From a virus: DNA of 64,000 nt. Position numbers and translations under genes: made by a program. Positions 24,614 to 47,262 of the stretch are shown here, one piece after another; the first letter of the stretch is position 1; every line of letters begins with the position of its first letter. The DNA is taken from IMG/VR virus record IMGVR_UViG_3300046171_000155. One strand, 5' to 3'. The notes beneath the pieces are model-generated. The model did not search any database. It was not told the origin of the DNA and worked only from the letters and a program-made list of their open reading frames with translations.

Positions 24614-25102
24614 TCAAGCTAAAAACTCTTCAAGTGTAGAAGGTGTAGAAAGTTCCAAAATAGGTTTCTGTTCGCTATAGTAAACAGATTTATTTTTACT
24701 TCTAGAAACCCATCTAAGATTTTCAGCGCGAAAATCATTCTTAATAGCATTGATGTGATCAATTTCCCAAAGTTCTTTGTCTATCAAGGATTTTACTGAT
24801 GTTGGGGTTTTAATCCAATCTTCTTTGGATATCCCTTCAGGTATTGGTTTTTTGACCCAAGCAGATGCCACTAACTGATGTACATTTGGATTCTTAGATT
24901 TACCGTTCATCCTAACGCCTACTTTGGGGTATGGTGTGTTGCCGCACACCCGAGGCGTCATGAACTTATTTGTCAGTAAACTATAGATTTTTCCACAAGA
25001 AGAAACCAGATAATTTTTCAGCATCTCTCCTTTATAATAAGGGTGTCTATATTCTATTCTGTTGATCGTCCGTTCTGCTTTCATGTCAAAGTTCCTCATC
25101 AA
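24614..25102 (-). CDS. HNH (NUMOD4-type) endonuclease
   Basis: YLVSSCGKI, VHQLVA, IDHIN..KND..AENLRWV..S.N. Confidence 0.8.
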   Translation of the reverse strand: MMRNFDMKAERTINRIEYRHPYYKGEMLKNYLVSSCGKIYSLLTNKFMTPRVCGNTPYPKVGVRMNGKSKNPNVHQLVASAWVKKPIPEGISKEDWIKTPTSVKSLIDKELWEIDHINAIKNDFRAENLRWVSRSKNKSVYYSEQKPILELSTPSTLEEFLA

Positions 25103-25155
25103 TTTACAAAGGAATTATACATAATTAAAACAAGTTGGGCAACAACTTTCTGATA

Positions 25156-25722
25156 CTAATTTGGAATAGTGCTATAACTTTTCAGTATATAGTCTACGAT
25201 AGTCTTAGTGTCTTCGGGTGTTTCGTGTTTGAAGTCGACAACACACCCTTTCTCCTCGCCGAAGACTGTTTGCTTATCACCAAATTGCTCAATGATGTTC
25301 TGGCATTTGGTTTGAGTCGTCTTGATGAATTTCTCTGATTGGTTTGACCCTCTCTTCTCATACCGACGTTCACGTTCCTCTTTGGAGGAAGTTATGTGGA
25401 CTATGGTTAGGTGAGGTTCACAACAATGGAAAAATGTCTTGTTGTTAAGCCGGTCGCCTTCTCCGACTATGAACTCATCAGGTCGAGTCGAGATCCAGTC
25501 TACTGCTCTAGGTGGCACTGCCATACTTAACCTGTCAGTGCCGTCGAAAGTCCCTTCGTTGTCGTCTTCATACTTACCCAGAACACGCAGGTTTCCTGCC
25601 ACATGCGTATCAAGCAACTCAACAACCCGCTCTTGTTTCCAATCATTAAACCGACTCATCAGTTCTTTCATGATAGTCGACTTGCCAGTTCCAGGCATAC
25701 CAATGATGTAAAAGATCTTCAT
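25156..25722 (-). CDS. P-loop nucleotide kinase (DNA-modification associated)
   Basis: GMPGTGKST, GTDRLSMAV, EGDRL and RGSNQ; ATGA overlap with the TET/JBP gene. Confidence 0.8.
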   Translation of the reverse strand: MKIFYIIGMPGTGKSTIMKELMSRFNDWKQERVVELLDTHVAGNLRVLGKYEDDNEGTFDGTDRLSMAVPPRAVDWISTRPDEFIVGEGDRLNNKTFFHCCEPHLTIVHITSSKEERERRYEKRGSNQSEKFIKTTQTKCQNIIEQFGDKQTVFGEEKGCVVDFKHETPEDTKTIVDYILKSYSTIPN

Positions 25723-27137
25723 GCGAAAAAGTCCTCAAGTGATATTTCTTCTTTCATCGCAACTGCTTCAGGATGATAGAGACGAAGCATATCTTCTCCA
25801 CCGCGTTGAGTCAAGTACTCATACCACTCTTCTTCACCCCACATACTTGGAGAAACGCCATTCCAATATGGTCTCCAGAGTCTATGGTCTTCGTTTTTAC
25901 GACGGTCGTCGACATAATCGCGACGTAGATGCTCATAGTCCCAAGAACCAAGTTTCATCATATCCTCACGGAAGTAGAACACGAGCGACATACGCAGTAG
26001 ATCATCTACACCGGAGTCTGGTGCCTCAATAGGAGTATTACCATGAATGATGCGCATGTTATCGACCAGAAGTAGATCGCCTGGACGGACATTAATAGCG
26101 GCACGAACCTCTGGTGTAACAAGATATCCACCCTTCCAGTCTTTCTTACCGTCGCTGATCACAGTCAGGTTTGAGAACCCTTCGTTAAGTGACCCAGCAT
26201 CTCGGTGACATGCCATCCGAGCATTACGTTCGCTAGTAGTGGTGTTGACGGTGATCGTGGTAAAGGTTGTGTCCTCGCCAATCAAGAACTTGTTATCAAG
26301 TTGGTCCGAAAACCCTTTCTGATTACCGTATCGACTTGGCAGTAACTCACGGAATACTTTGTCGAGTCGACGCGCAAACGGATAACACTTCTCAAACTTC
26401 TCACGGTGATGGTCGGTGTATGCTGTCGCACGACCATATGGGATGCGAGGGTATCGACCATAGAACCCAGCGATACCGGACCAGATAGCAGTAGCATAGT
26501 TGGTCGAAGAGATCATCTCCTTTCTAACACTTTTAGCATAAGCAGAAGCTTCCTCAATAGACATACCCGCCAGCTTATCCATCATCTTCGGGAAGAACTC
26601 TTTATATGAACCAAACTCTGGTTCAACCTTGGTGCGCAACCAAACACCACCACGGATCTCATCTTCTGCTTTCTCGTGTTTCTTCTCAAAATTCTCGAGC
26701 ATATCTCCACCTTCTAGATCAAGCGGTTGATTCTGCTCATACCAAGCAAGAACGTCTTGCTGGAATCCAGTCACCCAATCACGGTTGCCCTGAGTTTCTT
26801 CGCGTGGACCTGCTGCCATACCTCGGTTGTTAGACTCGATCGCGGCATCGAACAGACCTTCGAACGCACCGTCTTGCTCATCTTGTGTGAATACGTTTTT
26901 GCGAAACTTAAACGCGACATTAGACTCATCCTCTACGGGAGTGTCGTTGAACATCGCATTACCTGATGGAAGATAGAAGTCAGTATCCCCATCAACTAAA
27001 ATATCATATGATTCTTCGTTCGCGAACTGCCCCAAGATCTTTTCTTGTGGTTCTACAAACTGGGCAACATAAACATCCTGCCCTTCGTCACCCTTGTACT
27101 TCTTCCAAGAGCGACCATTAATTTCAATTAATTCCAT
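25719..27137 (-). CDS. TET/JBP-family 2OG-Fe(II) dioxygenase
   Basis: FTTITVN...ACHRDAG (HxD), GGYLV.PE, PGDLLL...HGNTPI and RMSLVFYFRE. Confidence 0.82.
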   Translation of the reverse strand: MELIEINGRSWKKYKGDEGQDVYVAQFVEPQEKILGQFANEESYDILVDGDTDFYLPSGNAMFNDTPVEDESNVAFKFRKNVFTQDEQDGAFEGLFDAAIESNNRGMAAGPREETQGNRDWVTGFQQDVLAWYEQNQPLDLEGGDMLENFEKKHEKAEDEIRGGVWLRTKVEPEFGSYKEFFPKMMDKLAGMSIEEASAYAKSVRKEMISSTNYATAIWSGIAGFYGRYPRIPYGRATAYTDHHREKFEKCYPFARRLDKVFRELLPSRYGNQKGFSDQLDNKFLIGEDTTFTTITVNTTTSERNARMACHRDAGSLNEGFSNLTVISDGKKDWKGGYLVTPEVRAAINVRPGDLLLVDNMRIIHGNTPIEAPDSGVDDLLRMSLVFYFREDMMKLGSWDYEHLRRDYVDDRRKNEDHRLWRPYWNGVSPSMWGEEEWYEYLTQRGGEDMLRLYHPEAVAMKEEISLEDFFA

Positions 27138-28119
27138 AAAATTCCTCTAAACCTATAGATTGATTACGGGGATCGAAATCTCCAGTATCCAAGAATAACT
27201 CCATTCTACTCTTATCAATCGAGTTTGTCAAGTACTCTACTGGTATTTTTTCTTGCCTAGCATCCCACATTGGTCGCCAATCAATACCAGACCAATTGTC
27301 TTTCTCGACCTTCTTAATTTCTTCGGCCTGTCTGTCAAGGTAGTATCCAAGATACCTACCGTCTCGTTTTCGGAACAACTTCTTGAAAGAACACAGCGCG
27401 GTTTCCATAGCAAAATAGTCTGCGGTTCCTTTTACTTTAGGAAATTGTTGCTTCACTTCCGCAAGTAACTCCCGTCCTTCAGACTCTAGAAAATCGACCT
27501 GAGTTTGGTCGAGTTTTTGATCGATCCATTCTTCCTTGCCTACCGCATAGCACAACCCATTGCGGTGAGACCTAGAACCGCTGTAGTCATGTAACCACAA
27601 ACTGTCTACGTCGACGTCAATATTACAGCACTGCTTCAGCGTCTGGATATAGAACCATGAAGAGTATCGACCGAACTTATGCCAAGAGTTTACTGTATCC
27701 CAAAGCGAATAAAAGTCTTTGGTCGGATCACCTACAAAGTTCTCGGTCAATGCCTCACGTTGCGTGCGCTCTCCAACAAACTCTTTGTATGAGATAAACT
27801 GTGACGGTAGGTGTCCCTTGTTCCACTTAGTGTCGGTCTGATACCGGAGACGTTTGTAGTTTTCGTTGTTCCACTCGGTGAGTCGTTCGACGCCAACGAG
27901 TTCCATATCAGGGAATTCGTTCCAGACAACATAGGAAGTCGGCCAGTAGTATGTTGTCCCATATAACCAAGACAACCAAAGTTTTTGCTCTGTGTTGTAT
28001 TCGAACCGATCGAAGAAGTAGTTTGTCATAAACAGCGCGGAGTCGCAGTCTTCTATTTCTAAAGACTTTCCGAACCAATCAACAAACGCTTCCTTACGGT
28101 TTTCGCGGTAGTCAATCAA
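27124..28119 (-). CDS. amino acid:DNA transferase (aGPT-Pplase2/ADDT family)
   Basis: WLYGTTY, YQTDTKW, FGRYSSWFY, GSRSHRNGL, METALCSFKK and RYLGYYLDRQ. Confidence 0.78.
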   Translation of the reverse strand: MIDYRENRKEAFVDWFGKSLEIEDCDSALFMTNYFFDRFEYNTEQKLWLSWLYGTTYYWPTSYVVWNEFPDMELVGVERLTEWNNENYKRLRYQTDTKWNKGHLPSQFISYKEFVGERTQREALTENFVGDPTKDFYSLWDTVNSWHKFGRYSSWFYIQTLKQCCNIDVDVDSLWLHDYSGSRSHRNGLCYAVGKEEWIDQKLDQTQVDFLESEGRELLAEVKQQFPKVKGTADYFAMETALCSFKKLFRKRDGRYLGYYLDRQAEEIKKVEKDNWSGIDWRPMWDARQEKIPVEYLTNSIDKSRMELFLDTGDFDPRNQSIGLEEFYGIN

Positions 28120-28758
28120 AAGAAAGATTCCAATGTGTTTTCATTAAAGAGTGCGTCACGCAACCAGTATTCGCCGACGTCATTAATCGCCTTCTCGACT
28201 TTCTCGGTTTTCTTCGCACCGAACCCATGCGACTCAAGCGAGTCTGACTTTAACTGCTCTCTCACCTTTGAGTCAGGCAACGCTGAGTCCGGATCTTTTA
28301 CTGCCAACTCTCGGAATGTTAGTTGCTCGTGTAGGTTGGGAAAAATAGGAACATTACAGCGAAGTGAACCAGAAGGATCGACGCCCCAGAAGAGTGTGCC
28401 ATTGCGTTTATGCCAAGTCACTGAGCTAGGTGTGCAAGACATCTTCAATCTCTGCATACCCTGTCTGTGCGCCTCGCCCATTACTTCCCAATAAACTTTA
28501 GAGGCATACCCATTACCCTCCATACCTTCAAGGGTTACGATCTCATACAAGTTAGCATACTTGCTTCGGGCACTAAATGTTATGAAAACAAGAGCGACGG
28601 GGCGGCCTGTTATCTTCGAGGACAAAGGGCGCTTGCTTTTCGTAGTTTTTAAAACGAAACCAAAGGTTGTGGGCAGACTTTAAGAACTTGGTATTTTGCC
28701 CCTCTGGTTGCGATTCTAAGAGAGACTCAACTTGCTCTTTAGTATATCGAATCAGCAT
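28116..28758 (-). CDS. GNAT-family acetyltransferase (frameshifted near 28610)
   Basis: ORFs 28573-28758 and 28116-28625 join; NLYEIVT..GMEGNGYAS acetyl-CoA motif A. Confidence 0.65.
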
Positions 28759-29423
28759 TGTAGATCTTCCAATTGTGGATCATAATATGTTTGGTCGGCG
28801 ATCAAAGAACTGCTCACGTCATACTTATAGTGGACCATAGGGTCACATTTTGAAATGCCAAAGGTAAGTCCGGAGCGAACGAAAATGTCTCGCGTCGAAG
28901 CGAATATGTAACCGTTCCATCTTTCTGCTCGCCACAAGGGTCTTTCGTGATTACGGAAAGCGTGGAGTCGGTCCTCTTCAAGCGCAACTACAGACATACT
29001 TCTGTCTTTGTAGGTATCTAGTGGGTGATCACCTTTCTCGATGCAACGCAGAATCAGTTCGGAATCATTCATCGTCTGAGTCTCATATTCCCAAACTTCT
29101 GGGTCCTGAGAGATGACACCGTTATGAGCAATAGAAATTCCATTACCCTGAAATGGTTGGTTGTATCGAAGGTCTGAGGTTGAATATCGGATATGACCGA
29201 TCAACTTCAGTGAGTCGTTAAAAACGAAGTCTTTGATGCTATGGTCTTTTAGGAACTCGGTGACGGGAACTGGTTCTTTGATTGTCTTCAGACCATGCTG
29301 TGTCACATAAGTAACACCAGTGGCATGCTTACCACGGATCATGGTTTGTCGAAAAATACGATCAACTAGGTTAATATCTTCCTCGACAATATCAGTCAGA
29401 TATACACCAATTACGCCACACAT
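28752..29423 (-). CDS. class II (Ntn) glutamine amidotransferase, stand-alone
   Basis: MCGVIG (Cys2), RGKHATG, GHIRYST, NQP, AHNGVI, NDSE, RPLW and FAS. Confidence 0.88.
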   Translation of the reverse strand: MCGVIGVYLTDIVEEDINLVDRIFRQTMIRGKHATGVTYVTQHGLKTIKEPVPVTEFLKDHSIKDFVFNDSLKLIGHIRYSTSDLRYNQPFQGNGISIAHNGVISQDPEVWEYETQTMNDSELILRCIEKGDHPLDTYKDRSMSVVALEEDRLHAFRNHERPLWRAERWNGYIFASTRDIFVRSGLTFGISKCDPMVHYKYDVSSSLIADQTYYDPQLEDLQC

Positions 29424-29448
29424 AATACCCTCACTTGATCATAATAAA

Positions 29449-29533
29449 TGGTGCGAAAGGAGAGACTCGAACTCTCACGCCTTGCGGCACTGGTACCTAA
29501 AACCAGCGTGTCTACCAATTCCACCACTCTCGC
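29449..29533 (-). tRNA. tRNA-Leu(UAG)
   Basis: Cloverleaf with variable arm, anticodon TAG, CCA. Confidence 0.95.
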
Positions 29534-29537
29534 AAAA

Positions 29538-29613
29538 TGGCTGGCGAGGCAGGGCTCGAACCTGCGACAACATGATTAACAGTCATGCGTTCTACCAACT
29601 GAACTACTCGCCA
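29538..29613 (-). tRNA. tRNA-Asn(GUU)
   Basis: Anticodon loop CTGTTAA, GGTTCGAGCC, CCA. Confidence 0.95.
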
Positions 29614-29625
29614 AATTATGGGTAT

Positions 29626-29654
29626 ATTATAATACATTAGGGGCCGTTTGTCAA
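29626..29654 (-). promoter_or_regulatory. consensus sigma70 promoter for tRNA-Asn/Leu and the modification operon
   Basis: TTGACA-17-TATAAT. Confidence 0.85.
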
Positions 29655-29670
29655 CATCCCTTAAATCTTT

Positions 29671-30264
29671 TTATGCCACCTCTTCTGCTTGTGGTATTGC
29701 ATTGCGCAAATACCCAAGTATATTTTCAGGAGTGGTCATTTCATACGGATCATCATCCGCGTTATCTCGGATACTTGCTTCACGGAACAATGCCTCGATC
29801 ACACCATCGGTGACGACCATTGCGTATCGCCAAGAACGGTATCCAAATCCTAGATTGTCTTTGTCAACAAGCATTCCCATCTCACGTGTAAAGTGACCAG
29901 ATCCATCTGGAATCACTTTGACTCGCTTGAGTTCTTGTTGACGTGCCCATGCGTTCATCACGAAAGAGTCGTTCACGGACATACAGTAAATGTCGTCAAT
30001 ACCAAGATCAACAAACTGATCAAACTTCTCTTCGAATGTCGGTAACTGCATAGTGGAACATGTCGGCGTAAATGCGCCAGGCAGTGAGAAAATTACAACA
30101 CGACGACCTTCTGTGTAGTCAGCCATCGTAGTCTCTTCCCAACGATATGGGTTAGGACCATCTATCTCATCATCACGTACTCGTGTCTGAAACGTTGCTT
30201 CGGGCAACGTATCGCCTACTTTCATTCCGGTGATTTTCATCCACCGATCATCATTATCTGTCAT
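29671..30264 (-). CDS. peroxiredoxin (Prx5/redoxin type)
   Basis: LPGAFTPTCS, SVNDSFVMNAW, IPDGSG and LGFGYRSWRY. Confidence 0.92.
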   Translation of the reverse strand: MTDNDDRWMKITGMKVGDTLPEATFQTRVRDDEIDGPNPYRWEETTMADYTEGRRVVIFSLPGAFTPTCSTMQLPTFEEKFDQFVDLGIDDIYCMSVNDSFVMNAWARQQELKRVKVIPDGSGHFTREMGMLVDKDNLGFGYRSWRYAMVVTDGVIEALFREASIRDNADDDPYEMTTPENILGYLRNAIPQAEEVA

Positions 30265-30641
30265 CAATCCTCCATCTCTGACAAATCTATGACTCCATCG
30301 TGAAGCCACTTCTCTTCAAGTTGGGTTAACTTCTCGTTCTCATACTGTCGTGCTTCTAGTTCGTCGGGGTGATTCTGATACCCTTTGAGAAAGTTCAACC
30401 AAACATATCGTATATAGAACTTGATTATACCCATGCGTTTGATCTGATAGCAGTGCTGCAACTCATGTCGATACAACTTAACGAGCGATCGTCGTGTCAT
30501 CAACTCAGACTGCGCAACTGATCCAGTCGCATATTTCTTAGGTCGCATGATCACATACGGCCATAGGACCACACCACGGAAACGAGACTTCCAAGGAAAG
30601 ATTGATTGAGATTCTTCCCTATAGACTATCTTAAACTTCAT
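30264..30641 (-). CDS. HExxH-containing hypothetical protein
   Basis: RHELQHCYQ...GY.NHP.ELEAR. Confidence 0.6.
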   Translation of the reverse strand: MKFKIVYREESQSIFPWKSRFRGVVLWPYVIMRPKKYATGSVAQSELMTRRSLVKLYRHELQHCYQIKRMGIIKFYIRYVWLNFLKGYQNHPDELEARQYENEKLTQLEEKWLHDGVIDLSEMED

Positions 30642-30758
30642 CCTTCCCCCACCTACGTAGTGTCTCTCTGTGTATGGTTTTATGGGAGTAGTACATCGTA
30701 ATACCGCCAAATACCATAGGACACATAAAGACTGCGAGAAGACCAAACATCCCTATAC

Positions 30759-31019
30759 TCATTTATAAAGATTTCCGTACAGAGTTCCCATTATTCTATG
30801 ATGGACAACTTCACGACCTTCGGTGTCTTCAGTACCGCCACACCAAGTACACTCTTCATCTTTACCGATCCAGATGTCGCCTTCAAACATGCAGTTATGG
30901 TTCCACACTATGGTTGACATATTTGTCCAGAAACACTCGTTGAATGTCTTATCCCAGACTTCGTTCCCTGTTCTTGAAATAGGTGACTCTGCGATCTGTA
31001 TTAAATTATCCCAACTCAC
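30759..31019 (-). CDS. hypothetical protein
   Basis: W.H.C...C.WCG. Confidence 0.55.
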   Translation of the reverse strand: MSWDNLIQIAESPISRTGNEVWDKTFNECFWTNMSTIVWNHNCMFEGDIWIGKDEECTWCGGTEDTEGREVVHHRIMGTLYGNLYK

Positions 31020-31234
31020 CTTGAGTCCTCGCGCTCTGCGATTGCCTCCTGACTAAATCCGCGCATTGCAAGTTCATTGCGCATCTTTCTTTTTTGTTTC
31101 TTGTTACTTGTACTGAAGAACTCGTTCCACAATTGTGTGTTGTCGAGTTGGTGCATATAGTAATGCTTGTTAGTGTTACGCGAACGCGCAATCACACTCT
31201 TGTAGACTTGACTTTGCTTGTACTTTACTGGCAT
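31016..31234 (-). CDS. conserved small phage protein
   Basis: MPVKY...KHYYM...KMRNEL.RG; AAGGA RBS. Confidence 0.6.
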   Translation of the reverse strand: MPVKYKQSQVYKSVIARSRNTNKHYYMHQLDNTQLWNEFFSTSNKKQKRKMRNELAMRGFSQEAIAEREDSR

Positions 31235-31248
31235 AATATAGATTCCTT

Positions 31249-32871
31249 TTATCCTGCAGAGATTTTGAGTGTTCCCAAATCGTTCCAAAGTTGACCCGCA
31301 TTCAATGGGTCTGTTGTAGGTAAGTTACTGAAAACGACTGTCGCGCCGCTTGCAGTAAGATCTGTCATCGTTACGCCAGCACCAAACGTCCAATCGTTTG
31401 TAGTGTTGTACGTTAGCGAACCAGCAGCAGATGTACGAATGTCAATTCCGTACTGGGTTGCAACGGCAGAATTACCACCTGTTGCTGCAAGAACGATAGT
31501 ATTGTTCGCATTCGCCTTAGCGCCACGACCGAGCGCCAAAGAAGCACTACCCGTTCCACCTGCGAACGGGCCAACTGCTGTGGTTTCTGTTCCTGTTGTT
31601 ATAGAGGAATTGGTACCAATGGCAACACTTGACGCTGAAGCTTCGGCGTTTTGTCCGATTGATATGCCTTGCGCACCTTTCACTTCAGTATTAGATCCAA
31701 TTGCAATACCATCGGTATTTGTATTAGTGTCAGCAGATAATCCAATTGCTATAGCATTTGTTGATAATGCCTGTGCACTATTTCCTAATGCTACAGAAGA
31801 CGTACCAGTGGCATCTGCCCCATTACCAATTGCGACTGAACGCGAAGATGACGCTACTGCCGAGGTGCCCATCGCAATAGTGTCTGCCTGAGATGAAGTC
31901 GCAGAACGACCAATAGCAATTGCATCTTCATAAGTGGCATTCGATCCTCTGCCCAATGAAAGGGTAAAGAGCGCAGTTGCGTTAGCATCATAACCTATCG
32001 CGATTGCATCTGCACCTGTGGCGTCAGCGAGATATCCTATCGCAACTTCGCCAGAAGCATCTTGAGTCGTCGCCCCTTCGCCAAGTCGGATCGATTGTTG
32101 ATTGTCAAAGACTGTCTGTACACCAGCAGAGTCCAGACCGCCGCCAGTACCAAGATTATCTATTTGAGACTGAATGTCATCCGTAACTGATTTGACCGCA
32201 GCAGCAGAAGGCACTTCTGTAGAAGTTGCTCCGTCCAGATCTTGAACGAATGACTCCATACCAGGATTGACGCCATCAAAATCGTCTTGTAGACGAAGAG
32301 GGTGTCCTGTCTTGATGTAAGTATCGCCGTCCAACTCAATATAATCGGATGTCTCTAAGTCGATCTTACCTTCTGCAGTGAGGTATATGTTATCTTCGGA
32401 AATAATATCCATGTAATCAACGGAAGTGATATTGACATTTTCAGCAGCAGAGATATCAACATCATCACCAGCAGTTAGTCCGATATCGTCACCAACATCA
32501 ACGATAAAGTCGTTTAGGGTGTTTATTTCAACATCCCACAAATCAACTCCGCCGGTTGAAAGAAGTTTTGGATTAGCCGGTGCGGCCGAATCACCATGCG
32601 GATCAGCCACATCGAACTTGACGAAAGACTCGCCACTGACAAGTTCTGATTGCGGACCACCGCCACCAGAGATTCCAGTGAGTTGTGAACCATCACCAAT
32701 GAATGATGTTGCAGTTACGGTGCCTGTTACATCAAGGTCACCCAGTATCTGTGTATCAGTTTCTATTGTGAATTTCTTTGTCATAGCTGGAATTCCGCTC
32801 TGTTCAACTAAGAGTTCTTCGTTTGTTATTTCTCCATCTGCATTTACATTAGGAGCATCTACATTTGACAT
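31249..32871 (-). CDS. YadA-head-repeat fibre/adhesin-like virion protein
   Basis: More than 12 14-aa A.A.G..(A/S)IAIG repeats; GTVTATSFIGDGSQLTG; LPT.DP.NAGQLWND.G.LKIS tail. Confidence 0.8.
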   Translation of the reverse strand: MSNVDAPNVNADGEITNEELLVEQSGIPAMTKKFTIETDTQILGDLDVTGTVTATSFIGDGSQLTGISGGGGPQSELVSGESFVKFDVADPHGDSAAPANPKLLSTGGVDLWDVEINTLNDFIVDVGDDIGLTAGDDVDISAAENVNITSVDYMDIISEDNIYLTAEGKIDLETSDYIELDGDTYIKTGHPLRLQDDFDGVNPGMESFVQDLDGATSTEVPSAAAVKSVTDDIQSQIDNLGTGGGLDSAGVQTVFDNQQSIRLGEGATTQDASGEVAIGYLADATGADAIAIGYDANATALFTLSLGRGSNATYEDAIAIGRSATSSQADTIAMGTSAVASSSRSVAIGNGADATGTSSVALGNSAQALSTNAIAIGLSADTNTNTDGIAIGSNTEVKGAQGISIGQNAEASASSVAIGTNSSITTGTETTAVGPFAGGTGSASLALGRGAKANANNTIVLAATGGNSAVATQYGIDIRTSAAGSLTYNTTNDWTFGAGVTMTDLTASGATVVFSNLPTTDPLNAGQLWNDLGTLKISAG

Positions 32872-32913
32872 TCTATTATACCTTTGATTTGTTCAATTGT
32901 GTACATCAATTGT

Positions 32914-32921
32914 TATTTATA
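32914..32921 (-). promoter_or_regulatory. T4-type late promoter
   Basis: TATAAATA upstream of the fibre gene. Confidence 0.75.
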
Positions 32922-32922
32922 A

Positions 32923-39711: not shown

Positions 39712-40760
39712 ACTGCCTCCTCAACAATGGTTTCTGCATTGATCACACTGTTGTGACCAATCTTGTAGGTCTTCTGAAGGAACCCAGCAAAGTCTGTTGC
39801 TTCAAAAATAGGTTCCCAGAACTCTGCATTAAGTGTGTCTTTGGTGCGCACCTTGTTACCGACGACTTCACCAGTAGAGGTATCGACACGTTGATACCAA
39901 CCATTAGATGGTTTCACAACGTATCCACCAACGAGTGCAACATCAAGAAGACCGGAGTACTTCTGCACTCCACCTTCCCACGAGACGCCAATCGGAATCT
40001 TTGACTTCTCTTTGACATATCGGGACTTCTCTACATTGATCACAAAGTCATAACCAACGATCTCAGTGCCCTGCTTCTCTTGACGACGACCGATAATCCA
40101 GATGTTGTCTGCAGAGTAATAGATGCCTGTGCCACCACTCACGATATCTTTCGGGAACAAACCGATCTCTTTGTATGTGTGATTGATCGCAATCATTGGG
40201 ATGTTCTTCATCGCAAGATAAGGTGTTGACATGCGGAACAGACCCTTCAGTGCCTTCGCACGAGACATGTCTGCAACACCCTTCTCGTTTAGTGCGTCCT
40301 CTAGTTCTTTCTTAGACGCTAGATTACCAATTGAGTCTATGACAATAATGACATCATCTTCGCGATCTAACTGTTCTAACTGGTTGATCATATCAAACTT
40401 CAGTTCTTCGACATTTGCAATCGGTGTGTGCAACACACGACTGGTATCGATACCGAACTGTTCAAAGTATGACTGCGGCGAACCAAACTCTGAATCATAG
40501 AACAACATAACTGCGTCTGGTTTAGCGTTGAGATATGCACCCGCCATGAGTAAGGCGAATGATGTCTTAAAATGTTTTGATGGTCCAGCGAGGACAGTCA
40601 GTCCAGGCGTCACACCACCATTGACAGATCCCGACAACGCGACATTCACCATCGGAACGTCGGTCGGAACCATGTCTTTCTCTGTGAAGAACTTACTCGT
40701 CGAGAGAGTCGCCGTCTCCTTTATCTTGCTGTTCTTCTTCAGTTTGTCCATTATCGACAT
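39708..40760 (-). CDS. uvsX: UvsX RecA-like recombinase
   Basis: AGPSKHFKT, FYDSEFG, IDSIGNLASKKE and SGGTG. Confidence 0.96.
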   Translation of the reverse strand: MSIMDKLKKNSKIKETATLSTSKFFTEKDMVPTDVPMVNVALSGSVNGGVTPGLTVLAGPSKHFKTSFALLMAGAYLNAKPDAVMLFYDSEFGSPQSYFEQFGIDTSRVLHTPIANVEELKFDMINQLEQLDREDDVIIVIDSIGNLASKKELEDALNEKGVADMSRAKALKGLFRMSTPYLAMKNIPMIAINHTYKEIGLFPKDIVSGGTGIYYSADNIWIIGRRQEKQGTEIVGYDFVINVEKSRYVKEKSKIPIGVSWEGGVQKYSGLLDVALVGGYVVKPSNGWYQRVDTSTGEVVGNKVRTKDTLNAEFWEPIFEATDFAGFLQKTYKIGHNSVINAETIVEEAV

Positions 40761-41682
40761 TCTTTTTGCCTCCAAAATCTACGAATGTAATATTGTTTAC
40801 TTTTTCACGATCATCAAGGTCATATTGTACCCTATAATCGCTATTGATGTCAAGTACTCTTTCAAGAAGATCAAAGGAATGTTCGTTGCCTTCTCGATCT
40901 TCAAATGTAGAAAATCGTAAGAATGCCTTTGTGTCTTTAGGCAGACACGCGCCGCCGAAACCACGCTTACCATCAAAACCTGGAACACGAGTATGGCCCA
41001 TGCCGACACGATCATCTTTACCAGCAGCTCGCACTACAGTGTTGTAGTTGCAACCATACATGTTGATCAGATCATACAACTGATTGAAGAATGTGATCTT
41101 GGTTGATAGGAATGAGTTGATCGTGTATTTTACAAACGATGCCTCGTATGCAGTCATACGGTGATAGTCATTTGACTCACACGCACTAAAGATTTCATAC
41201 ACATCGATGACTTCTGCAACTGACTGAGGAGTGCCACCGATGACATGAAACTTTGCAGAGACGAAATCTGCCTTTGCGTTTTTCTCTGTCAGAAACTCAG
41301 GATTATAGGCAAAACGATCTGCCTGTTCTTTCGTGATCTGTTGATAAATTCTATCAACCGCATCTGGTGTGATAGTTGACTTGATGATTACAAGAGCATC
41401 TGTTTCATGTAAACACTTCAGTGCAGACTCTTCAACAATAGAAGAATTGACAGAACCATCGTCATTCGAAGGTGTCGGTGCGCAGATGAAGAAACAAGTC
41501 GGAGTCTCATCAAGTGTTTTTGATGACAAGTCATCTAGACCTGTGTTATACTTTGGATCAAATAGTGCGAAGTCGACTATAGGATGCGTGAATGCATATT
41601 CTACAGCTTGTCCGACAAATCCATGCCCCACAATACCAATTAAAAACCTTGCGGGTGCGCCGTCCGGCATCATTCTAGACAT
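40693..41682 (-). CDS. ugd: UDP-glucose/GDP-mannose 6-dehydrogenase (short form)
   Basis: GHGFVG, CAPTP, IKST, YNPEFL, K...N and GFGGACLPKD. Confidence 0.85.
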   Translation of the reverse strand: MSRMMPDGAPARFLIGIVGHGFVGQAVEYAFTHPIVDFALFDPKYNTGLDDLSSKTLDETPTCFFICAPTPSNDDGSVNSSIVEESALKCLHETDALVIIKSTITPDAVDRIYQQITKEQADRFAYNPEFLTEKNAKADFVSAKFHVIGGTPQSVAEVIDVYEIFSACESNDYHRMTAYEASFVKYTINSFLSTKITFFNQLYDLINMYGCNYNTVVRAAGKDDRVGMGHTRVPGFDGKRGFGGACLPKDTKAFLRFSTFEDREGNEHSFDLLERVLDINSDYRVQYDLDDREKVNNITFVDFGGKKNVDNGQTEEEQQDKGDGDSLDE

Positions 41683-42623
41683 TAGTCTACCTCGTTATAT
41701 TCTTTGTACCACTCGTAAAATCTTTCAACACCTTCTGCGATACTCACTTTTGGTTGATAACCAAGTGCGCCAAGTTTAGATGTGTCTGACCATGTTTCCT
41801 TGGTGTCTGCCGGATGCTTAGGTGCAAGATTCTTAATTGCTGTCTTACCAGTGTTCTTTTCAATTTCACCAATAAAGTCCATCAACTCGACTTGTTCACC
41901 ACGACCAATGTTAAAGATCTCACCAGACTGGATATCGGTGTTATCTAAGACGACTTCAATACCGTCCAAAATGTCATCAATATAAGTGAAGTCGCGCTTC
42001 ATGTCACCATAATTATACACGGTTATTTCTTTTTCGTCAAGAATGTTCTTAGTGAAATCAAACAATGCCATATCCGGACGGCCCCAAGGACCATAGACTG
42101 TGAAGAAACGCAGACCGACAGTATTGAGACCAGACGACTGCATCTGACACTCGTTCGCCCACTTGGTGTATCCGTATGCGTTCAACTGCTTACCATGTTC
42201 GCGACCTTCCACCCATGGCACCGGAGCGCCAGCATAAATGCATGAAGTTGACGCATAGACGATACGCGTTTTTGGTAAATGCCTTTTACAAACATCAATC
42301 AGGTTCTGCGTCCCATCGATATTATTTGCGTGATAACTCTTCTCTTTACCTAGTGAGTCGCGCACACCTGCCATCGCACCTAAGTGCACGATAGTGTCTG
42401 GTTTAAAATCCCACAAGAGTGCTTCTAACTTGACCTCATCTGTTAGGTCGCATCCCCAAATATCAAGGTTAAAGTGGACCATGCGGTCGCGTTTCAACTT
42501 TGGAGTATATAAGTGGTTGTTAAAATTGTCAATTCCCTTGACCGAAAGACCACGATCCATCAGCCGTTTTGATAACTGAGATCCAATGAATCCAGCGGCA
42601 CCTGTAACTAAAACTCTTTTCAT
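41682..42623 (-). CDS. NAD-dependent epimerase, UDP-glucuronate 4-epimerase type
   Basis: TGAAGFIG, AGVR.S, YGYTK, LRFFTVYGPWGRPDMA and RDFTYIDD. Confidence 0.88.
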   Translation of the reverse strand: MKRVLVTGAAGFIGSQLSKRLMDRGLSVKGIDNFNNHLYTPKLKRDRMVHFNLDIWGCDLTDEVKLEALLWDFKPDTIVHLGAMAGVRDSLGKEKSYHANNIDGTQNLIDVCKRHLPKTRIVYASTSCIYAGAPVPWVEGREHGKQLNAYGYTKWANECQMQSSGLNTVGLRFFTVYGPWGRPDMALFDFTKNILDEKEITVYNYGDMKRDFTYIDDILDGIEVVLDNTDIQSGEIFNIGRGEQVELMDFIGEIEKNTGKTAIKNLAPKHPADTKETWSDTSKLGALGYQPKVSIAEGVERFYEWYKEYNEVD

Positions 42624-42624
42624 T

Positions 42625-43569
42625 TTATCCGTTCCTGTAAATATATTCTAATGCCCTGTCTGCTTCTGCAGTCAGTGGTCTATTTTCATACCAGTTGCCT
42701 GTCTCAAGATCAAACTCGCGACATAGATCTGCAATCTGGTTTGCGGTGATTGGGTATCCTTTAGAGTATGCATTACCCGCAATCGCAATCATTATCTTGT
42801 ACATTTTAAAATACCATCCGGAGTCTGTAATCTGCATATATTGCGCACCCAGCTTACGCGGCCAGAATGGGCAATCACGATAAGAAGACCATCGGTAGTC
42901 GGTGTTATTTAGACCATCTTTACGATACTGTATAACTGCTGCTCGCATCTCAGGTGATAGTCTATCAAGGAAGGTATTGTTCGTTTTCTCATGATAAGGA
43001 TGTTTTGCAATCAACTCAGACGCATTCATGGGGTTGCCACCAGAGTTGACCATAAAGAACGAATACGCGTTGGGATACTGTGCGGGCACGTAGTACATAC
43101 GCGCAAGATCTTTCGTCTGTGGATCACCGAGTTCACCTAGTTCTGTATTGAGTGCATGCCAGAACGCTTTGATACGATTGTTCTCGATCTGTTCGTCGAG
43201 ACGGAATATGATTCGAAATTTTAGATGCTCTTCTGTACTACTCGCTGTGTTGTAGACGACATAGTCATACTGACCATACTTGCGATGTAACCAAGTTCGC
43301 AAAGATTCTACATTAGTGCAACCGTCAATAGGATCATCCACATCAACGCAACACCAAGGAGACCAATATAGAACAGATCGATTACTACGCGTCGTACCCA
43401 CGTCGAACACAGCAGGAGTAAGAAGAGGAGAACTATTGGATCCACCTTTCTCTCCAGGTTTAGTGTAAGAATCACGAAGACACACCACGAAGTCCATCCA
43501 CGACATAAATGTGGTACGACGGTGTGTCTTGTTATCAAACTGGTTTTTGAATAGAGTTAGCTCATACAT
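42625..43569 (-). CDS. primase-polymerase (AEP)-like protein
   Basis: CCVDVDD (DxD), YNTASS..HLKFRI and DPQTKDLARMYY; C-terminal helical domain. Confidence 0.55.
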   Translation of the reverse strand: MYELTLFKNQFDNKTHRRTTFMSWMDFVVCLRDSYTKPGEKGGSNSSPLLTPAVFDVGTTRSNRSVLYWSPWCCVDVDDPIDGCTNVESLRTWLHRKYGQYDYVVYNTASSTEEHLKFRIIFRLDEQIENNRIKAFWHALNTELGELGDPQTKDLARMYYVPAQYPNAYSFFMVNSGGNPMNASELIAKHPYHEKTNNTFLDRLSPEMRAAVIQYRKDGLNNTDYRWSSYRDCPFWPRKLGAQYMQITDSGWYFKMYKIMIAIAGNAYSKGYPITANQIADLCREFDLETGNWYENRPLTAEADRALEYIYRNG

Positions 43570-43575
43570 GCAGAC

Positions 43576-43604
43576 ATTATACCACTAACCAAAGAATACG
43601 TCAA
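43576..43604 (-). promoter_or_regulatory. sigma70 promoter, apparently leaderless
   Basis: TTGACG-17-TATAAT, then 6 nt to ATG. Confidence 0.7.
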
Positions 43605-44463
43605 GGGTAGAGACGCCCTGCTCTTGATAGTTCCAGAGCAGTAGTTCTTTGCGGTTATGTTCGTCCTCACGGTACTTCTTACCGGAGTGCATGGTGTAGG
43701 TTAGATCCCACTCCAACTGATTCCATCCAGTGTATGCTTGCTTGAGTGTTTCGTTAGAGTTGTAGGTGATCATAACCATCGCATCGGTGTTGTCGAGTTC
43801 ATCGTGGAACCGCTTGTGACAAAACGAGTCGTGCATATCCCCGTTGTTACCATAGATGAACGACTTGATGTCGTAAGGTGGGTCCGCAAAGATAAATGTA
43901 TCTTTATCAGCACCTTCTAGAAAATACGAGTAGTCTTCGTTGGTGATCTCCCAGTTGCGCATCAACGCTGAGAACTTGGGCAACTTACCAATCAGTCGAT
44001 GGTTGAATTGCTGAAACACCGCATCTTTTGAAAACGAACCTGTAGACTCACCCAGACCACTAAATGAGCAACGATTCATAACATAGAACTGCCACGCGAT
44101 CTCGAAGGGATCCTCTGCGGTATTCAGACCCTCACGCATGATATGATAATAGTCAAGGTGAGCCTGTAAGGAATCCTCTGCGTCGGAGAGTTCATCTTTG
44201 ACTGCGTGTAGTTTATCCGCAAGGTCTTGGCCGCGACTCTGGAGAGACTTCCAGAAGCAGTACAGATTGTAGTATTTGTCGTTGACTTTGACGGGAATAT
44301 TGGGAAACTTTTTAGTAAACGCAATCGCGCAAGAACCGCCACCTAGAAACATCTCGCGATATTCACGAATATTATCGACGGGCATATTCTGTGACGAGAA
44401 TAAGAAATCAACAGCGCGTGACTTACCGCCTGGATATCGGAGGGGCGTTTTTAAGTTTTTCAT
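43585..44463 (-). CDS. dam: DNA adenine methyltransferase (D12/Dam class)
   Basis: PLRYPGGKSR, E.FLGGGS, NRCSFSG and DPPY. Confidence 0.9.
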   Translation of the reverse strand: MKNLKTPLRYPGGKSRAVDFLFSSQNMPVDNIREYREMFLGGGSCAIAFTKKFPNIPVKVNDKYYNLYCFWKSLQSRGQDLADKLHAVKDELSDAEDSLQAHLDYYHIMREGLNTAEDPFEIAWQFYVMNRCSFSGLGESTGSFSKDAVFQQFNHRLIGKLPKFSALMRNWEITNEDYSYFLEGADKDTFIFADPPYDIKSFIYGNNGDMHDSFCHKRFHDELDNTDAMVMITYNSNETLKQAYTGWNQLEWDLTYTMHSGKKYREDEHNRKELLLWNYQEQGVSTLDVFFG

Positions 44464-44469
44464 GCGTAT

Positions 44470-44498
44470 ATTATACCATAATGATACTTGTTCGTCAA
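44470..44498 (-). promoter_or_regulatory. sigma70 promoter, apparently leaderless
   Basis: TTGACG-17-TATAAT (TG-extended), then 6 nt to ATG. Confidence 0.7.
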
Positions 44499-44731
44499 TC
44501 GAAAAGTTCTTCGAAAGAGGTTACGCCCATAAGTTCGAATATGGGTTCTAAGTCTATCACATCAGGGATTTCTTGAACGGCAGGTGGTGTGTACTTAGAC
44601 CAACAAGAAGGGCACCTCGGTTTACGTTCTGCTATAACGTCCTTTTGTTCTGACCAAGTCAACAGTGATAAACTTACCTTTCTACTGCAGTCGCAACATT
44701 TTTGTTTATAAGGTAACGTTTTTTGTCCCAT
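44495..44731 (-). CDS. small zinc-finger-like protein
   Basis: CCDC...CPSC; GAGG RBS before MGQKT. Confidence 0.55.
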   Translation of the reverse strand: MGQKTLPYKQKCCDCSRKVSLSLLTWSEQKDVIAERKPRCPSCWSKYTPPAVQEIPDVIDLEPIFELMGVTSFEELFD

Positions 44732-44786
44732 ATCAAAATCCTCAATTATTTCGAATCGGGTATCATAGTACATTTTAAAAACAAAG

Positions 44787-47262
44787 TCAACCAAAAAAGT
44801 CCTCAAGAGTTGCTTTCGGCTCTGTTTGCCAACCAACAGCGTCGAGTATCGGCTCAAGCGGGTCGAGGAAAGTCTTGTCAAACATCGTATCATAGTCAAT
44901 GTATTTGTGCAGGTTCAGTTCTGGTGGGAGATTCAGTGGATAACTTACAACGTTCTGACCGAGACCGTTTGGAACTTTGAGATAACAAAACTTGATTTTC
45001 TCTCCCTGCTTCACGGTCTCCACGCGATTCTGAAGTCCGGCATCTTTGATTGCGGCATTGAAACATAGTGCACCACGAACATGGATAGGAGTACCTTTCT
45101 TGAAGATAGTCTTGCGGTCTTGCCACTTAGTCAACTCAGACACACCACGAGGGAAAGACACATCTTCAGGAGGCAGAGTCTTGAAGTAGGAACGGAAGTC
45201 ACGAATATATCCCTTGAGTGTCGGACTCAGTACCCTCCACAATGACGCGGAAGATCTCCTTAAACTTATCGCGGACGACCTGCGGAGTCGAAGACTTGAT
45301 CGCCTCGATGCCCATCATCTTGAGTTTGGGTTCTGCGTACTGGACGCCTTCGTTGTTGTGGACGTTCAGGATGTATCGTTTCTTCGCCATCCAGATCCCA
45401 CGGTCTGCGATCACCTCACGTCCCATCTCCATTCGGTTGACATACGCGCCTGTGACCTCTGCCATCTTTGCATATGATTTATCAAGTGATTTCTCGAAAT
45501 GTTCGCGGCAGATCTTATCTAAGAACTTGACAGGATTGTTGGGACTAAAACGGTCGATAAGATCACCCATTCGAATATAAACGGAGTCTGTGTCAATTGC
45601 CACAACGTAATCTTCATCTGTTTTGAGAATGTTTTGCATCTCATTGTTCACGCACCTCTCTGCCCATTTGATGGCTAACTGACCAGCCATGGTGATAGAC
45701 TCGGCAACACGCTGATCAAAGTACCGAAACCACTTATTACCAAGAGCGCCATAGAGTGAGTTCATTAAGATCTTAATCGCCATCTGTTGGTTGTTAAGTG
45801 ACGTGATCTTATATTGCAGGGACTTGCTTGGGTTCTTTTGATATTCCTGTTCTAACTCCAGCATCTTATTTTTAATGATGCGTCGGTCTGCATAGTATTG
45901 TTCAATGATTGTCGGAATCACACCTTTGCGGTCATGCGAGAATCTGACACCAGTCGGGGAGATCGAGTACTCAGAATCATTCACCGTTCTACCTTCCAAG
46001 AAACTCTCGACAGACACGTCGGGCACAATACCATCGACTACAGTCTCCGGCGACATATTGTACTGCACAATGATGTTAGGATACAGAGAGTTCAGGTCAA
46101 ATGAGGTCACCCAATCATGCGCACCAACTTGAGGTTCTTTAACATACCCGCCAGGATATGGAGTCTTGGGTTTCTCTGTCTTGGGGGGGATCACGATCTT
46201 CTGATTGTTCAACATGCGGTAAATGATCGAGTCCCAGATCGCAGTCGTACCGAGAGTGTCTGTATAGTTGACACCGCCACGATACGCCATAGTGAGTACC
46301 AGAGAGATTAGGTCAAGTTTCTCATCGATCTTGTGCACCAACTCCACGTCTTTGACGTTGTAGTCAATAAACTTCTGGTAGTCCTCTTTATAAAGGGTGT
46401 GTAGGTTTCCGTGTTCTTCATACGAGAGTTTGCTTTCGCCTAGGACGACGTGCGCAACAAAGTCTAACCGATAAGACTCTAATCTTCCGATCGTGTTGAG
46501 GGTAAACTTTTTAAAGACCTCAAGGTAATCAAGATGCTCAACGCCGTCAATAATATACTCTTGGTTTTCTTGTCCATTAATTTTCTGCTTTCTCTCGCGC
46601 ACGAGACCCCAAGGCGACAGACGTTTTACTAACGTGTCGTCACCAAAAAGATTGTAACATCGGTTGACGATGTAAGGGATATCAAAGAATCGTGTGTTCC
46701 ATCCTGTAATAATGTCGGGACTGTAACTCTGCCAGTGTTCCACAAATTTACGGATCAGGTCCATCTCGTTGTCACAACGGATAAACAGAACATCTTCACG
46801 AGAAGGAGTGTAGTCATTGAGTCCCCACACCCAGTAGTTTCCGTCGTTCTTACGAATGGCGATAGAGATGATAGGGTGTTTTGCAGATTCGGGTTCTGGG
46901 AACCCAGAGTCAGAAGCTACCTCGATATCAATATTAACAACGCGAACCTGATCGCGTTCGAATTTAATTTCGTTCGGCCAATATTCGGATATGAATTGAG
47001 CAGTGTAATTATTTTGACCGAAAACCTTGAAGTTAGAAACGTCACGATACTGCTTCGTGAACTCCGTTGCCTCTTTCATGGTCTCGAACTGCATCTCAAC
47101 CATAGACCGGCCATCTAGAGTTCTCCACTCTGAAGGTGAGTCGCCGGAGACATAAAGTTTTGGTTTGAAGGGAACGCGGGTTTTGATCTGTTGACCATTA
47201 TCATATCCGCGATAAAGAATGTTGTTCCCGATGCGGGAAACGTTGGTATAGAATCTAGTCAT
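44787..47262 (-). CDS. 43: family B DNA polymerase gp43 (+1 frameshift near 45212)
   Basis: [31 protein letters not shown] and KKRY; C-terminus continues in 44787-45242 and ends ATLEDFFG. Confidence 0.97.

What the first reader, a model, noticed from the sequence alone, without database searches (positions are those of the whole stretch)
24614..44810. DNA-modifying enzymes share the polymerase's C-terminal sliding-clamp tail, suggesting replisome-tethered modification
Seen C-termini: gp43 ATLEDFFG; TET/JBP ISLEDFFA; AA:DNA transferase IGLEEFYGIN; GNAT NTLESFF; Dam STLDVFFG; HNH nuclease STLEEFLA. Weaker matches: gp55 DLSDYLE, UvsW ESEFFD, ORF 44495-44731 SFEELFD. The metabolic genes in the window (AceA, AOX, IscU, APRT) lack such a tail. 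Established: T4/RB69 gp43, gp55 and gp33 bind the gp45 clamp through a C-terminal (S/T)L(D/E)xx(F/L)-type peptide. Inference: three of the five hypermodification enzymes plus Dam ride the gp45 clamp, modifying nascent phage DNA behind the fork and sparing host DNA. This independently supports action on DNA rather than on free nucleotides.
Basis: partly seen in the sequence, partly recalled or inferred. Interest (0 to 1): 0.88.

Follow-up and report, generated by a model that had tools for sequence, protein, structure and literature searches.

The report
Polymerase-type clamp tails on DNA-modifying enzymes
In this marine T4-like phage, five enzymes that act on DNA end in the same short peptide as the phage DNA polymerase. 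T4-type polymerases use that peptide to hold the sliding clamp, so DNA modification is probably docked on newly copied DNA, though binding has not been measured.

Summary
The motif [STG]L[DE]x[FL][FLY] occurs six times in 19,450 residues of 94 window ORFs. All six copies lie within 4 residues of a C-terminus: gp43 polymerase, Dam, TET/JBP, amino-acid:DNA transferase (ADDT), a GNAT-like protein and an HNH nuclease.

The tail is kept in relatives:
- 120 of 120 TET homologues (64-96% identity), behind a variable linker.
- 71 of 75 Dam homologues.
- All ADDT and GNAT-like homologues seen.

Replication proteins, the kinase and the amidotransferase never carry it. In related phages, TET-associated glycosyltransferases carry it too.

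The strongest evidence is that the tail follows the polymerase's own tail in distant phages. In Salmonella phage SFP10, PolB, ADDT and a 5-hmdU kinase share VNL/SLL-type tails. In a Vibrio Ackermannviridae phage, PolB, ADDT and two kinases all end in [KR][KR]LW. TET homologues of phages with no clamp seen in the fetched stretch or no gp43-type polymerase lack any tail.

Docking on gp45 is inferred from T4 and RB69, not shown here. The one complex prediction gave no verdict. The weaker matches (UvsW, ORF 44495) are not supported.

This scan has already reported the same pattern in at least eight other genomes. I found no paper describing it. It is a new variant of a known kind.

The parts
44787..47298 (-). 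gp43 family-B DNA polymerase, read here as two ORFs (45199-47298 and 44787-45242) because of a 1-nt insertion near 45210. It ends in ...ATLEDFFG (tail codons 44790-44813).
   Evidence: Pfam DNA_pol_B and exonuclease domain. C48C1 and L031 have one 824-836 aa ORF. The indel was located by alignment. 39 of 47 relatives carry the tail.
43585..44463 (-). D12-class N6-adenine DNA methyltransferase (Dam) ending in ...STLDVFFG (tail 43588-43611).
   Evidence: Pfam MethyltransfD12, 8.6e-26. 71 of 75 homologues at 61-100% identity keep the tail. It is kept even where the gene is not next to gp43, as in L046.
25719..27137 (-). TET/JBP-type 2OG-Fe dioxygenase (5-methylpyrimidine dioxygenase) ending in ...ISLEDFFA (tail 25722-25745).
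   Evidence: Pfam Tet_JBP, 9.5e-17. 120 of 120 homologues end in [ST]L[ED]xFF(x). Column entropies: L 0.07, E 0.42, F 0.14, F 0.21, against 2.1-2.6 with indels in the 8 columns before. The AF2 model gives a short helix at 467-471 after a break, with pLDDT about 66 against 89-93 upstream.
27124..28119 (-). Amino acid:DNA transferase (ADDT) ending in ...IGLEEFYGIN (tail 27127-27156).
   Evidence: Pfam ADDT, 2.7e-23. Relatives end in GLE.F[FYM](x) in every locus seen.
28116..28758 (-). GNAT-like acetyltransferase, 213 aa in relatives. The window copy carries a 1-nt insertion near 28608. It ends in ...NTLESFF (tail 28119-28139).
   Evidence: Pfam Acetyltransf_1, 2.3e-6, on the intact copy L005:5232-5873. 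Indel located. Relatives end in TLESFF, SLDAFL, SLDEFL or SLDDFV.
24614..25102 (-). HNH_3 endonuclease ending in ...STLEEFLA (tail 24617-24640).
   Evidence: Pfam HNH_3, 1.2e-8. The family is small: 6 clusters at 77-100% identity. All 5 aligned end in STLEEFLA or STLEKYLV, and there is a 3-residue indel in the linker just upstream.
25156..25722 (-). P-loop nucleotide kinase 3 (5-hmdU DNA kinase-like). It has no tail.
   Evidence: Pfam Ploopntkinase3, 2.2e-15. No relative carries a tail.
28752..29423 (-). Class-II glutamine amidotransferase-like protein. It has no polymerase tail but has its own conserved ending, L.DLQ[CP].
   Evidence: Pfam GATase_6, 1.2e-7. Endings in relatives are listed.
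52702..53382 (-). gp45 sliding clamp, the proposed docking partner.
   Evidence: Pfam gp45-slide_C, 5.4e-14. 3,621 relatives found by phmmer.
49989..51310 (-). gp44 (50366-51310) and gp62 (49989-50369) clamp-loader subunits. Neither has a tail.
   Evidence: They are orthologous to the C48C1 genes annotated 'clamp loader of DNA polymerase'. No tails in 17 and 23 relatives respectively.
56276..56872 (-). gp55 late sigma factor ending in ...DSDLSDYLE, a variant tail followed by acidic residues.
   Evidence: Ortholog of the C48C1 'late sigma transcription factor'. Relatives end in DLSSFLEG, DLSNFFEE, DLMDFFLDDEE or TLDKFIADE. T4 gp55 ends in SLDFLYEAND. Its C-terminus is the known clamp epitope (PMC2988020).
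44495..44731 (-). 78-aa Cys-rich small ORF inserted between gp43 and Dam, ending in ...TSFEELFD. It is a doubtful tail.
   Evidence: Sequence read. No Pfam hit. Absent in L031 and L046.

Best explanation
The 6-8 residue ending [ST]-L-[DE]-x-F-[FLY](x) is a short linear docking motif. It has an L-x-x-F-F core like a PIP box, sits at the extreme C-terminus and follows a short variable connector. In this phage it is carried by the replicative polymerase gp43 and by five other enzymes that act on DNA: Dam, TET/JBP dioxygenase, amino-acid:DNA transferase, a GNAT-like acyltransferase and an HNH nuclease.

Proposed mechanism:
- The clamp loader gp44/62 loads the trimeric gp45 ring at primer ends.
- The ring has three hydrophobic pockets and stays on newly made duplex DNA.
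- The tails of the modifying enzymes occupy free pockets, or clamps left behind the fork. The enzymes are then held on, and slide along, freshly replicated phage DNA.
- There they methylate adenine, oxidise the 5-methylpyrimidine and build the amino-acid-derived hypermodification.
- Enzymes that handle small molecules are not tethered. Examples are the amidotransferase here and the UDP-galactopyranose mutase in C48C1.

What is shown: the motif exists, it is placed exclusively at C-termini, it is conserved, it is restricted to enzymes that act on DNA, and it co-varies with the polymerase tail.

What is inferred: gp45 is the receptor (by homology with T4 and RB69), and tethering raises the speed or completeness of modification.
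For: 1. All 6 motif hits in the window are C-terminal and none is internal. In the whole C48C1 genome only gp43, Dam and TET carry it.

2. Purifying selection acts on the tail. 120 of 120 TET homologues keep it while the connector varies in sequence and length. Dam keeps it in 71 of 75 and gp43 in 39 of 47. There are no tails among hundreds of primase, helicase, clamp-loader, RegA, gp46/47 and UvsX-type relatives.

3. Unrelated enzyme families acquired it independently in relatives. These are two TET-associated glycosyltransferases, a GT group-1 enzyme, a second GNAT and a methylase-like protein.

4. Tail and polymerase co-vary in other phages:
- DLP_6: gp43 ATLDSFFA, TET ATLGDFFV.
- Cr30: gp43 DLSSLFD, TET GATLF.
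- SFP10: PolB VNLLSMMGKKG, ADDT VNLMSLLKR, HMUD2 kinase VSLLGLLSKG.
- Vibrio phage 1.244.A: PolB ARKLW, ADDT TRKLW, HMUD2 TKRLW, HMUDK KRLW.

5. TET homologues in HTVC112P and P12024L (no clamp gene in the stretches fetched) and in S-CBWM1 (no gp43-type polymerase) have no tail.

6. Literature. The gp43, gp55 and gp33 tails bind gp45 and are interchangeable (PMC2988020). The T4 ligase LDFLF loop binds gp45 with Kd about 10.7 uM and there is a co-crystal structure (PMC6212786). In T4 the in-frame LDFL[FY] word occurs only in gp43, gp55 and ligase. T4 alpha-GT co-purifies with gp45 (PMC13216743).

7. The AF2 model of TET puts the tail in a short, low-confidence terminal helix outside the fold.
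Against: - There is no direct evidence that any of these peptides binds this phage's gp45.
- The DNA kinase of the same operon acts on DNA yet has no tail in this lineage.
- In C48C1 the protein next to TET (CDS0067) has at best a degenerate ending (QLEEYISCVA).
- The HNH family is too shallow (77-100% identity) for conservation to mean much.
- For T4 alpha-GT, the 2026 study concluded that clamp binding is not the main determinant of modification level. Tethering may therefore have a modest effect.
- The connector in TET is only about 8 residues, which is short for a flexible tether.
Confidence: 0.77

Rival explanations
1. The tail docks the polymerase and the modifying enzymes on a shared hub other than gp45. 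Candidates are the ssDNA-binding protein gp32, the clamp loader, the primosome or the host beta clamp.
For: All my evidence shows a receptor shared with the polymerase but does not name it. The Cr30 tails (LSSLFD, ATLF) resemble the bacterial beta-clamp word QL[SD]LF.
Against: In T4 and RB69 the homologous C-terminal position of gp43 binds gp45, as shown by crystal structures and mutagenesis. gp55, a known gp45 client, carries a related tail here and in relatives. Every tail-bearing phage checked encodes gp45 or a T4-type replication module, and TET homologues of phages without a gp43-type polymerase or an evident clamp lack the tail.
Confidence: 0.12
2. The shared ending is not a docking site. 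It is a C-terminal tag with another role, such as a protease or turnover signal, a solubility signal or a localisation signal, or a structural cap of each fold.
For: Short conserved hydrophobic C-termini can act as degrons. The TET connector is short.
Against: - Six unrelated folds cannot share one structural cap.
- The tag is restricted to enzymes that act on DNA plus the polymerase.
- It changes in step with the polymerase tail in four other lineages. A host-protease degron would not predict that.
Confidence: 0.06
3. The likeness is a by-product of chance or of recent recombination that copied 3' gene ends between neighbouring genes, and it has no function.
For: Dam lies next to gp43, and the four operon genes are adjacent.
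Against: - The chance probability is about 2e-10.
- The tails persist at 61-73% identity while the connectors diverge.
- Dam keeps the tail when it is moved away from gp43.
- Residues around the core differ between the genes, so there is no copied cassette.
Confidence: 0.02

Closest known systems
C-terminal gp45-binding epitopes of T4/RB69 gp43, gp55 and gp33
   Same: A short hydrophobic and acidic peptide at the extreme C-terminus behind a divergent linker, shared by functionally different proteins of one phage. T4 has gp43 ...KASLDFLFG and gp55 ...PSLDFLYEAND. The epitopes are interchangeable.
   Different: The sequence dialect differs: [ST]LExFF here against SLDFL[FY] in T4. The clients here are DNA-modifying enzymes and a nuclease rather than polymerase or transcription factors. 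Binding has not been measured here.
Internal LDFLF loop of T4 DNA ligase (gp30) bound to gp45 (PMC6212786)
   Same: A non-polymerase DNA enzyme carries a copy of the polymerase's clamp word. Binding was predicted from sequence likeness and then confirmed (Kd about 10.7 uM, co-crystal).
   Different: In ligase the motif sits in an internal loop. Here it is always C-terminal.
T4 alpha-glucosyltransferase binding to gp45 (Sommer 2004; PMC13216743)
   Same: A phage DNA-modification enzyme that physically binds the sliding clamp, giving the idea of replication-coupled modification.
   Different: T4 alpha-GT has no gp43-like tail; it ends in ...EQFDIITK, and its contact site is undefined. In T4 the interaction was judged not to be the main determinant of modification level.
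Eukaryotic PIP-box clients of PCNA, such as DNMT1 (my own knowledge, not checked here)
   Same: The L-x-x-F-F core equals the h-x-x-a-a core of the PIP box. A DNA methyltransferase is recruited to the clamp at replication sites.
   Different: There is no conserved Gln three residues upstream. The position is terminal rather than internal. The clamp is viral, and the ancestry is unrelated.
Thymidine hypermodification enzymes of ViI-like phages: ADDT/aGPT-Pplase and 5-hmdU DNA kinases (PMC8989533)
   Same: The same Pfam families occur (ADDT, 5-hmdU DNA kinase). The chemistry on DNA after replication is established.
   Different: That paper does not mention a clamp. Here the source of the hydroxymethyl base is a TET/JBP dioxygenase rather than a dUMP hydroxymethylase. 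The Kuttervirus homologues carry a different tail dialect, matched to their own PolB.

Membership tests
gp45 sliding-clamp clients with a polymerase-type docking peptide | A short hydrophobic/acidic motif at the extreme C-terminus (or in a flexible loop) that matches the tail of the phage's own gp43 | tested here: met
   Six proteins end in [STG]L[DE]x[FL][FLY]. All hits are terminal and none is internal.
gp45 sliding-clamp clients with a polymerase-type docking peptide | The motif is conserved while the connector before it varies | tested here: met
   TET column entropies and indels. Tail lists for TET, Dam, ADDT and GNAT-like. Linker indel in HNH.
gp45 sliding-clamp clients with a polymerase-type docking peptide | The same genome encodes a gp45-type clamp and a gp44/62 loader | tested here: met
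   gp45-slide_C at 52702-53382. gp44 and gp62 are orthologous to C48C1 genes annotated as clamp loader.
gp45 sliding-clamp clients with a polymerase-type docking peptide | The client tail co-varies with the polymerase tail between lineages and is absent where there is no clamp | tested here: met
   DLP_6, Cr30, SFP10 and Vibrio phage 1.244.A. The TET homologues of HTVC112P, P12024L and S-CBWM1 have no tail; absence of a clamp there was judged from the fetched stretches and, for S-CBWM1, from the missing gp43 hit, not from a clamp search.
gp45 sliding-clamp clients with a polymerase-type docking peptide | Physical binding of the peptide to the hydrophobic pocket of gp45 | not testable with these tools
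   This needs ITC, anisotropy, pull-down or a co-crystal. The single complex prediction returned no verdict.
Canonical PIP box (Q-x-x-[ILM]-x-x-[FY]-[FY]) | A conserved Gln three residues before the aliphatic residue | tested here: not met
   The position three residues before L is variable (K, E, V, A ...) in the TET alignment and in the six window tails. Only the L-x-x-F-F half matches.
Post-replicative thymidine hypermodification pathway (5-hmdU DNA kinase + ADDT/aGPT-Pplase) | A DNA kinase and an amino-acid:DNA transferase encoded together with a source of the 5-hydroxymethylpyrimidine | tested here: met
   Ploopntkinase3, ADDT and Tet_JBP lie in one operon. The chemistry itself was not tested.

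The most novel reading that the evidence does not exclude
There may be a general 'polymerase-tail code' across phages with T4-type replication modules. Whatever C-terminal peptide a lineage's polymerase uses, its DNA-modifying enzymes copy it. Examples are LExFF in marine Kyanoviridae-like phages, VNLxSxx in Kuttervirus and [KR][KR]LW in Vibrio Ackermannviridae. The enzymes concerned include dioxygenases, amino-acid transferases, DNA kinases, glycosyltransferases, methyltransferases and some nucleases.

If so, hypermodification is mechanistically coupled to replication. The tail could also serve as a sequence-only probe for finding unknown DNA-acting enzymes, such as the 116-aa protein L007:4824-5174 or the 88-aa protein of the Vibrio phage.
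Probability: 0.6. Interest if true: 0.75.

Novelty: new variant of a known kind. Interest (0 to 1): 0.66.

Why it matters
If the tails do dock on gp45, they answer how phages modify their DNA fast enough to protect it before host nucleases act. The enzymes would be delivered by the replication machinery itself to nascent DNA.

This would enlarge the known client list of a viral sliding clamp from replication and transcription factors to a whole set of base-modifying enzymes. These include the experimentally studied ViI-type thymidine hypermodification enzymes.

It also gives a practical rule: matching a protein's C-terminus to the polymerase's tail flags new DNA-acting enzymes in uncultured phages. 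Finally, it suggests that in vitro assays and biotechnological uses of these enzymes might need the clamp and loader for full activity.

Tried and rejected
- **Complex prediction (no verdict).** I ran gp45 x3 (alignment A1) with TET residues 425-472 (alignment A2). The job was unreachable four times and then ran. The verdict was 'no answer'. Scores were 0.43, 0.43 and 0.47, with 0.00 for replaced partners, but 0.38 when gp45 was replaced by an unrelated protein. The result is not specific and I use it neither for nor against binding.
- **Whole genome.** No genome is held for this window. I used the complete genome of C48C1 instead.
- **Python box lost.** It was lost, so a planned profile-based scoring of all C-termini in all 100+ loci, and a permutation test of the co-variation, could not be run. 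Later tails were read one by one with translate.
- **UvsW ESEFFD as a clamp tail: rejected.** Relatives end in DTLFD, KIFKLDLK, HKVHI and other unrelated sequences.
- **ORF 44495-44731 SFEELFD: left open.** It is a lineage-specific insert with no relatives to test.
- **Tail copied by recombination between neighbouring genes: rejected.** See the rival explanations.
- **Literature.** Searches for a published description of polymerase-type tails on TET, ADDT, kinase or Dam found none in the held library. One search timed out. The library is incomplete, so this is not proof of absence.
Full report
**What the window is.** All genes lie on the minus strand. The window comes from a marine T4-like myovirus. 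Its nearest GenBank record is Phage C48C1 (Kyanoviridae, 156 kb), with 86-93% identity in the genes compared.
- HNH_3 (24614-25102)
- P-loop nucleotide kinase 3 (25156-25722)
- Tet_JBP (25719-27137)
- ADDT, the amino-acid:DNA transferase (27124-28119)
- a GNAT-like protein (28116-)
- GATase_6 (28752-29423)
- D12 Dam (43585-44463)
- family-B polymerase (44787-47298)
- gp45 clamp (52702-53382)

**The observation.** The six quoted C-termini are present. The regex [STG]L[DE].[FL][FLY] occurs six times in 19,450 residues of 94 ORFs. Every occurrence lies within four residues of a C-terminus and none is internal. The chance of that placement is about 2e-10. In the complete C48C1 genome (213 ORFs) a looser pattern picks out only gp43, Dam and TET, plus one tiny ORF that is probably spurious.

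**Conservation.**
- TET/JBP has 2,245 relatives in metagenomes. The top 120 (64-96% identity) all end in [ST]L[ED]xFF with or without one more residue.
- Column entropies in the TET alignment are 0.07 (L), 0.42 (E), 0.14 and 0.21 (F, F). The eight preceding columns score 2.1-2.6 and contain indels. This is a conserved word on a variable connector.
- An AlphaFold2 model (mean pLDDT 82) places the word in a short terminal helix after a break, with confidence falling from about 90 to about 66.
- In 103 IMG/VR loci, Dam keeps the tail in 71 of 75 copies and gp43 in 39 of 47. All ADDT and GNAT-like homologues seen keep it.
- Primase, helicase, clamp loader, RegA, gp46/47, UvsX-type proteins, the kinase and the amidotransferase never have it.
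- Dam keeps the tail even where it is not adjacent to gp43.
- The HNH family is small: 6 clusters at 77-100% identity, and all 5 aligned carry the tail. This evidence is weaker.

**Other families carry it too.** In related phages the proteins next to TET that carry the tail are two TET-associated glycosyltransferases (TAGT), a group-1 glycosyltransferase, a second GNAT and a methylase-like protein. By contrast, the UDP-galactopyranose mutase next to TET in C48C1 acts on a sugar nucleotide and has no tail. The tail therefore marks enzymes whose substrate is DNA. One exception is the DNA kinase of this lineage.

**Co-variation with the polymerase.** This is the most telling result.

| Phage | Polymerase tail | Modification-enzyme tails |
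|---|---|---|
| Stenotrophomonas phage DLP_6 | gp43 ATLDSFFA | TET ATLGDFFV |
| Caulobacter phage Cr30 | gp43 DLSSLFD | TET GATLF |
| Salmonella phage SFP10 (ViI-like Kuttervirus) | PolB VNLLSMMGKKG | ADDT VNLMSLLKR; HMUD2 5-hmdU DNA kinase VSLLGLLSKG |
| Vibrio Ackermannviridae phage 1.244.A | PolB ARKLW | ADDT TRKLW; HMUD2 TKRLW; HMUDK KRLW |

In the Vibrio phage, a pattern search of the whole record found only seven hits against three in the control. Five of the seven are CDS ends: the four proteins in the table plus an 88-aa protein.

TET homologues in HTVC112P and P12024L, two small phages with no clamp gene in the stretches I fetched, and in S-CBWM1, which has no gp43-type polymerase, have no such ending.

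So the enzymes copy whatever peptide their own polymerase carries. That is what a shared receptor predicts.

**Which receptor.** This step is inferred, not shown.
- T4 gp43 ends in KASLDFLFG and gp55 in PSLDFLYEAND.
- In the T4 genome the in-frame word LDFL[FY] occurs only in gp43, gp55 and the internal loop of DNA ligase.
- That ligase loop was predicted to bind gp45 from its likeness to the gp43 tail. Binding was then proven, with Kd about 10.7 uM and a crystal structure (PMC6212786).
- The gp55 of this window and its relatives also carry a related tail.

I therefore put about 0.77 on gp45 docking and about 0.12 on another shared hub.

**Precedent and novelty.** A clamp-bound modification enzyme is not new in principle. 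T4 alpha-glucosyltransferase co-purifies with gp45 (Sommer 2004, confirmed in PMC13216743). However, it has no gp43-like tail, and the 2026 study found the interaction is not the main determinant of glucosylation level.

The papers on phage T-dioxygenases and thymidine hypermodification do not mention a replication clamp in this role. I found no description of polymerase-type tails on TET, ADDT, kinase or Dam in the held library.

This scan has already reported the same pattern in at least eight other genomes, none with measured binding.

I class the finding as a new variant of a known kind, with interest 0.66.

**What failed or stayed open.** The one complex prediction returned no verdict and is not used as evidence. 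The Python machine was lost, so a profile-based survey and a permutation test of the co-variation were not run. The UvsW 'tail' is not conserved. ORF 44495-44731 is a lineage-specific insert that could not be tested. 'Sparing host DNA' is untested.

Noticed in passing
window 45199-45242 (near 45210): The gp43 polymerase is split into ORFs of 699 and 151 aa by a single extra base relative to C48C1. Relatives such as L031 have one ORF of 836 aa. This is either an assembly error or a real frameshift.
   Followed up: partly
window 28573-28625 (near 28608): The GNAT-like gene also carries a 1-nt insertion relative to the otherwise near-identical IMG/VR contig L005, where the protein is 213 aa. Two such indels in one window suggest sequencing or assembly errors.
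   Followed up: partly
window 28752-29423 and homologues in L006-L026: The GATase_6 protein has no polymerase tail but has its own conserved C-terminal ending, L-x-D-L-Q-[C/P] (LEDLQC, LKDLQP, ADLQPC, NDLQ). Its meaning is unknown.
   Followed up: no
window 44495-44731: A 78-aa Cys-rich small ORF (CxxC ... CxxC) is inserted between gp43 and Dam and ends in TSFEELFD. It is absent from relatives L031 and L046 and has no Pfam hit.
   Followed up: partly
L116 (Salmonella phage SFP10) and L117, L121, L122 (Vibrio phage 1.244.A): Ackermannviridae phages use other tail dialects shared by PolB, ADDT and 5-hmdU DNA kinases: VNLxSxx plus basic residues in SFP10, and [KR][KR]LW in the Vibrio phage. In the Vibrio phage an 88-aa protein of no known family (NVP1244A_078) also ends in KRLW and could be a gp33-like clamp client.
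   Followed up: partly
L007:4824-5174: A 116-aa protein of no known family lies between TET and the kinase in a close relative and ends in MTLERFFE. It may be an undescribed clamp client.
   Followed up: no
L002:1998-4030 (C48C1 CDS0067 and CDS0068): C48C1 shares the TET gene but replaces the ADDT/GNAT/GATase/kinase set. In their place are an unknown 344-aa protein ending in QLEEYISCVA and a UDP-galactopyranose mutase. This suggests a different, sugar-based hypermodification on the same oxidised base.
   Followed up: partly
window 56985-57395: The 136-aa ORF downstream of UvsW has an internal LSLEEYL word 18 residues from its end. This is one of only three internal hits of the loosest pattern.
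   Followed up: no
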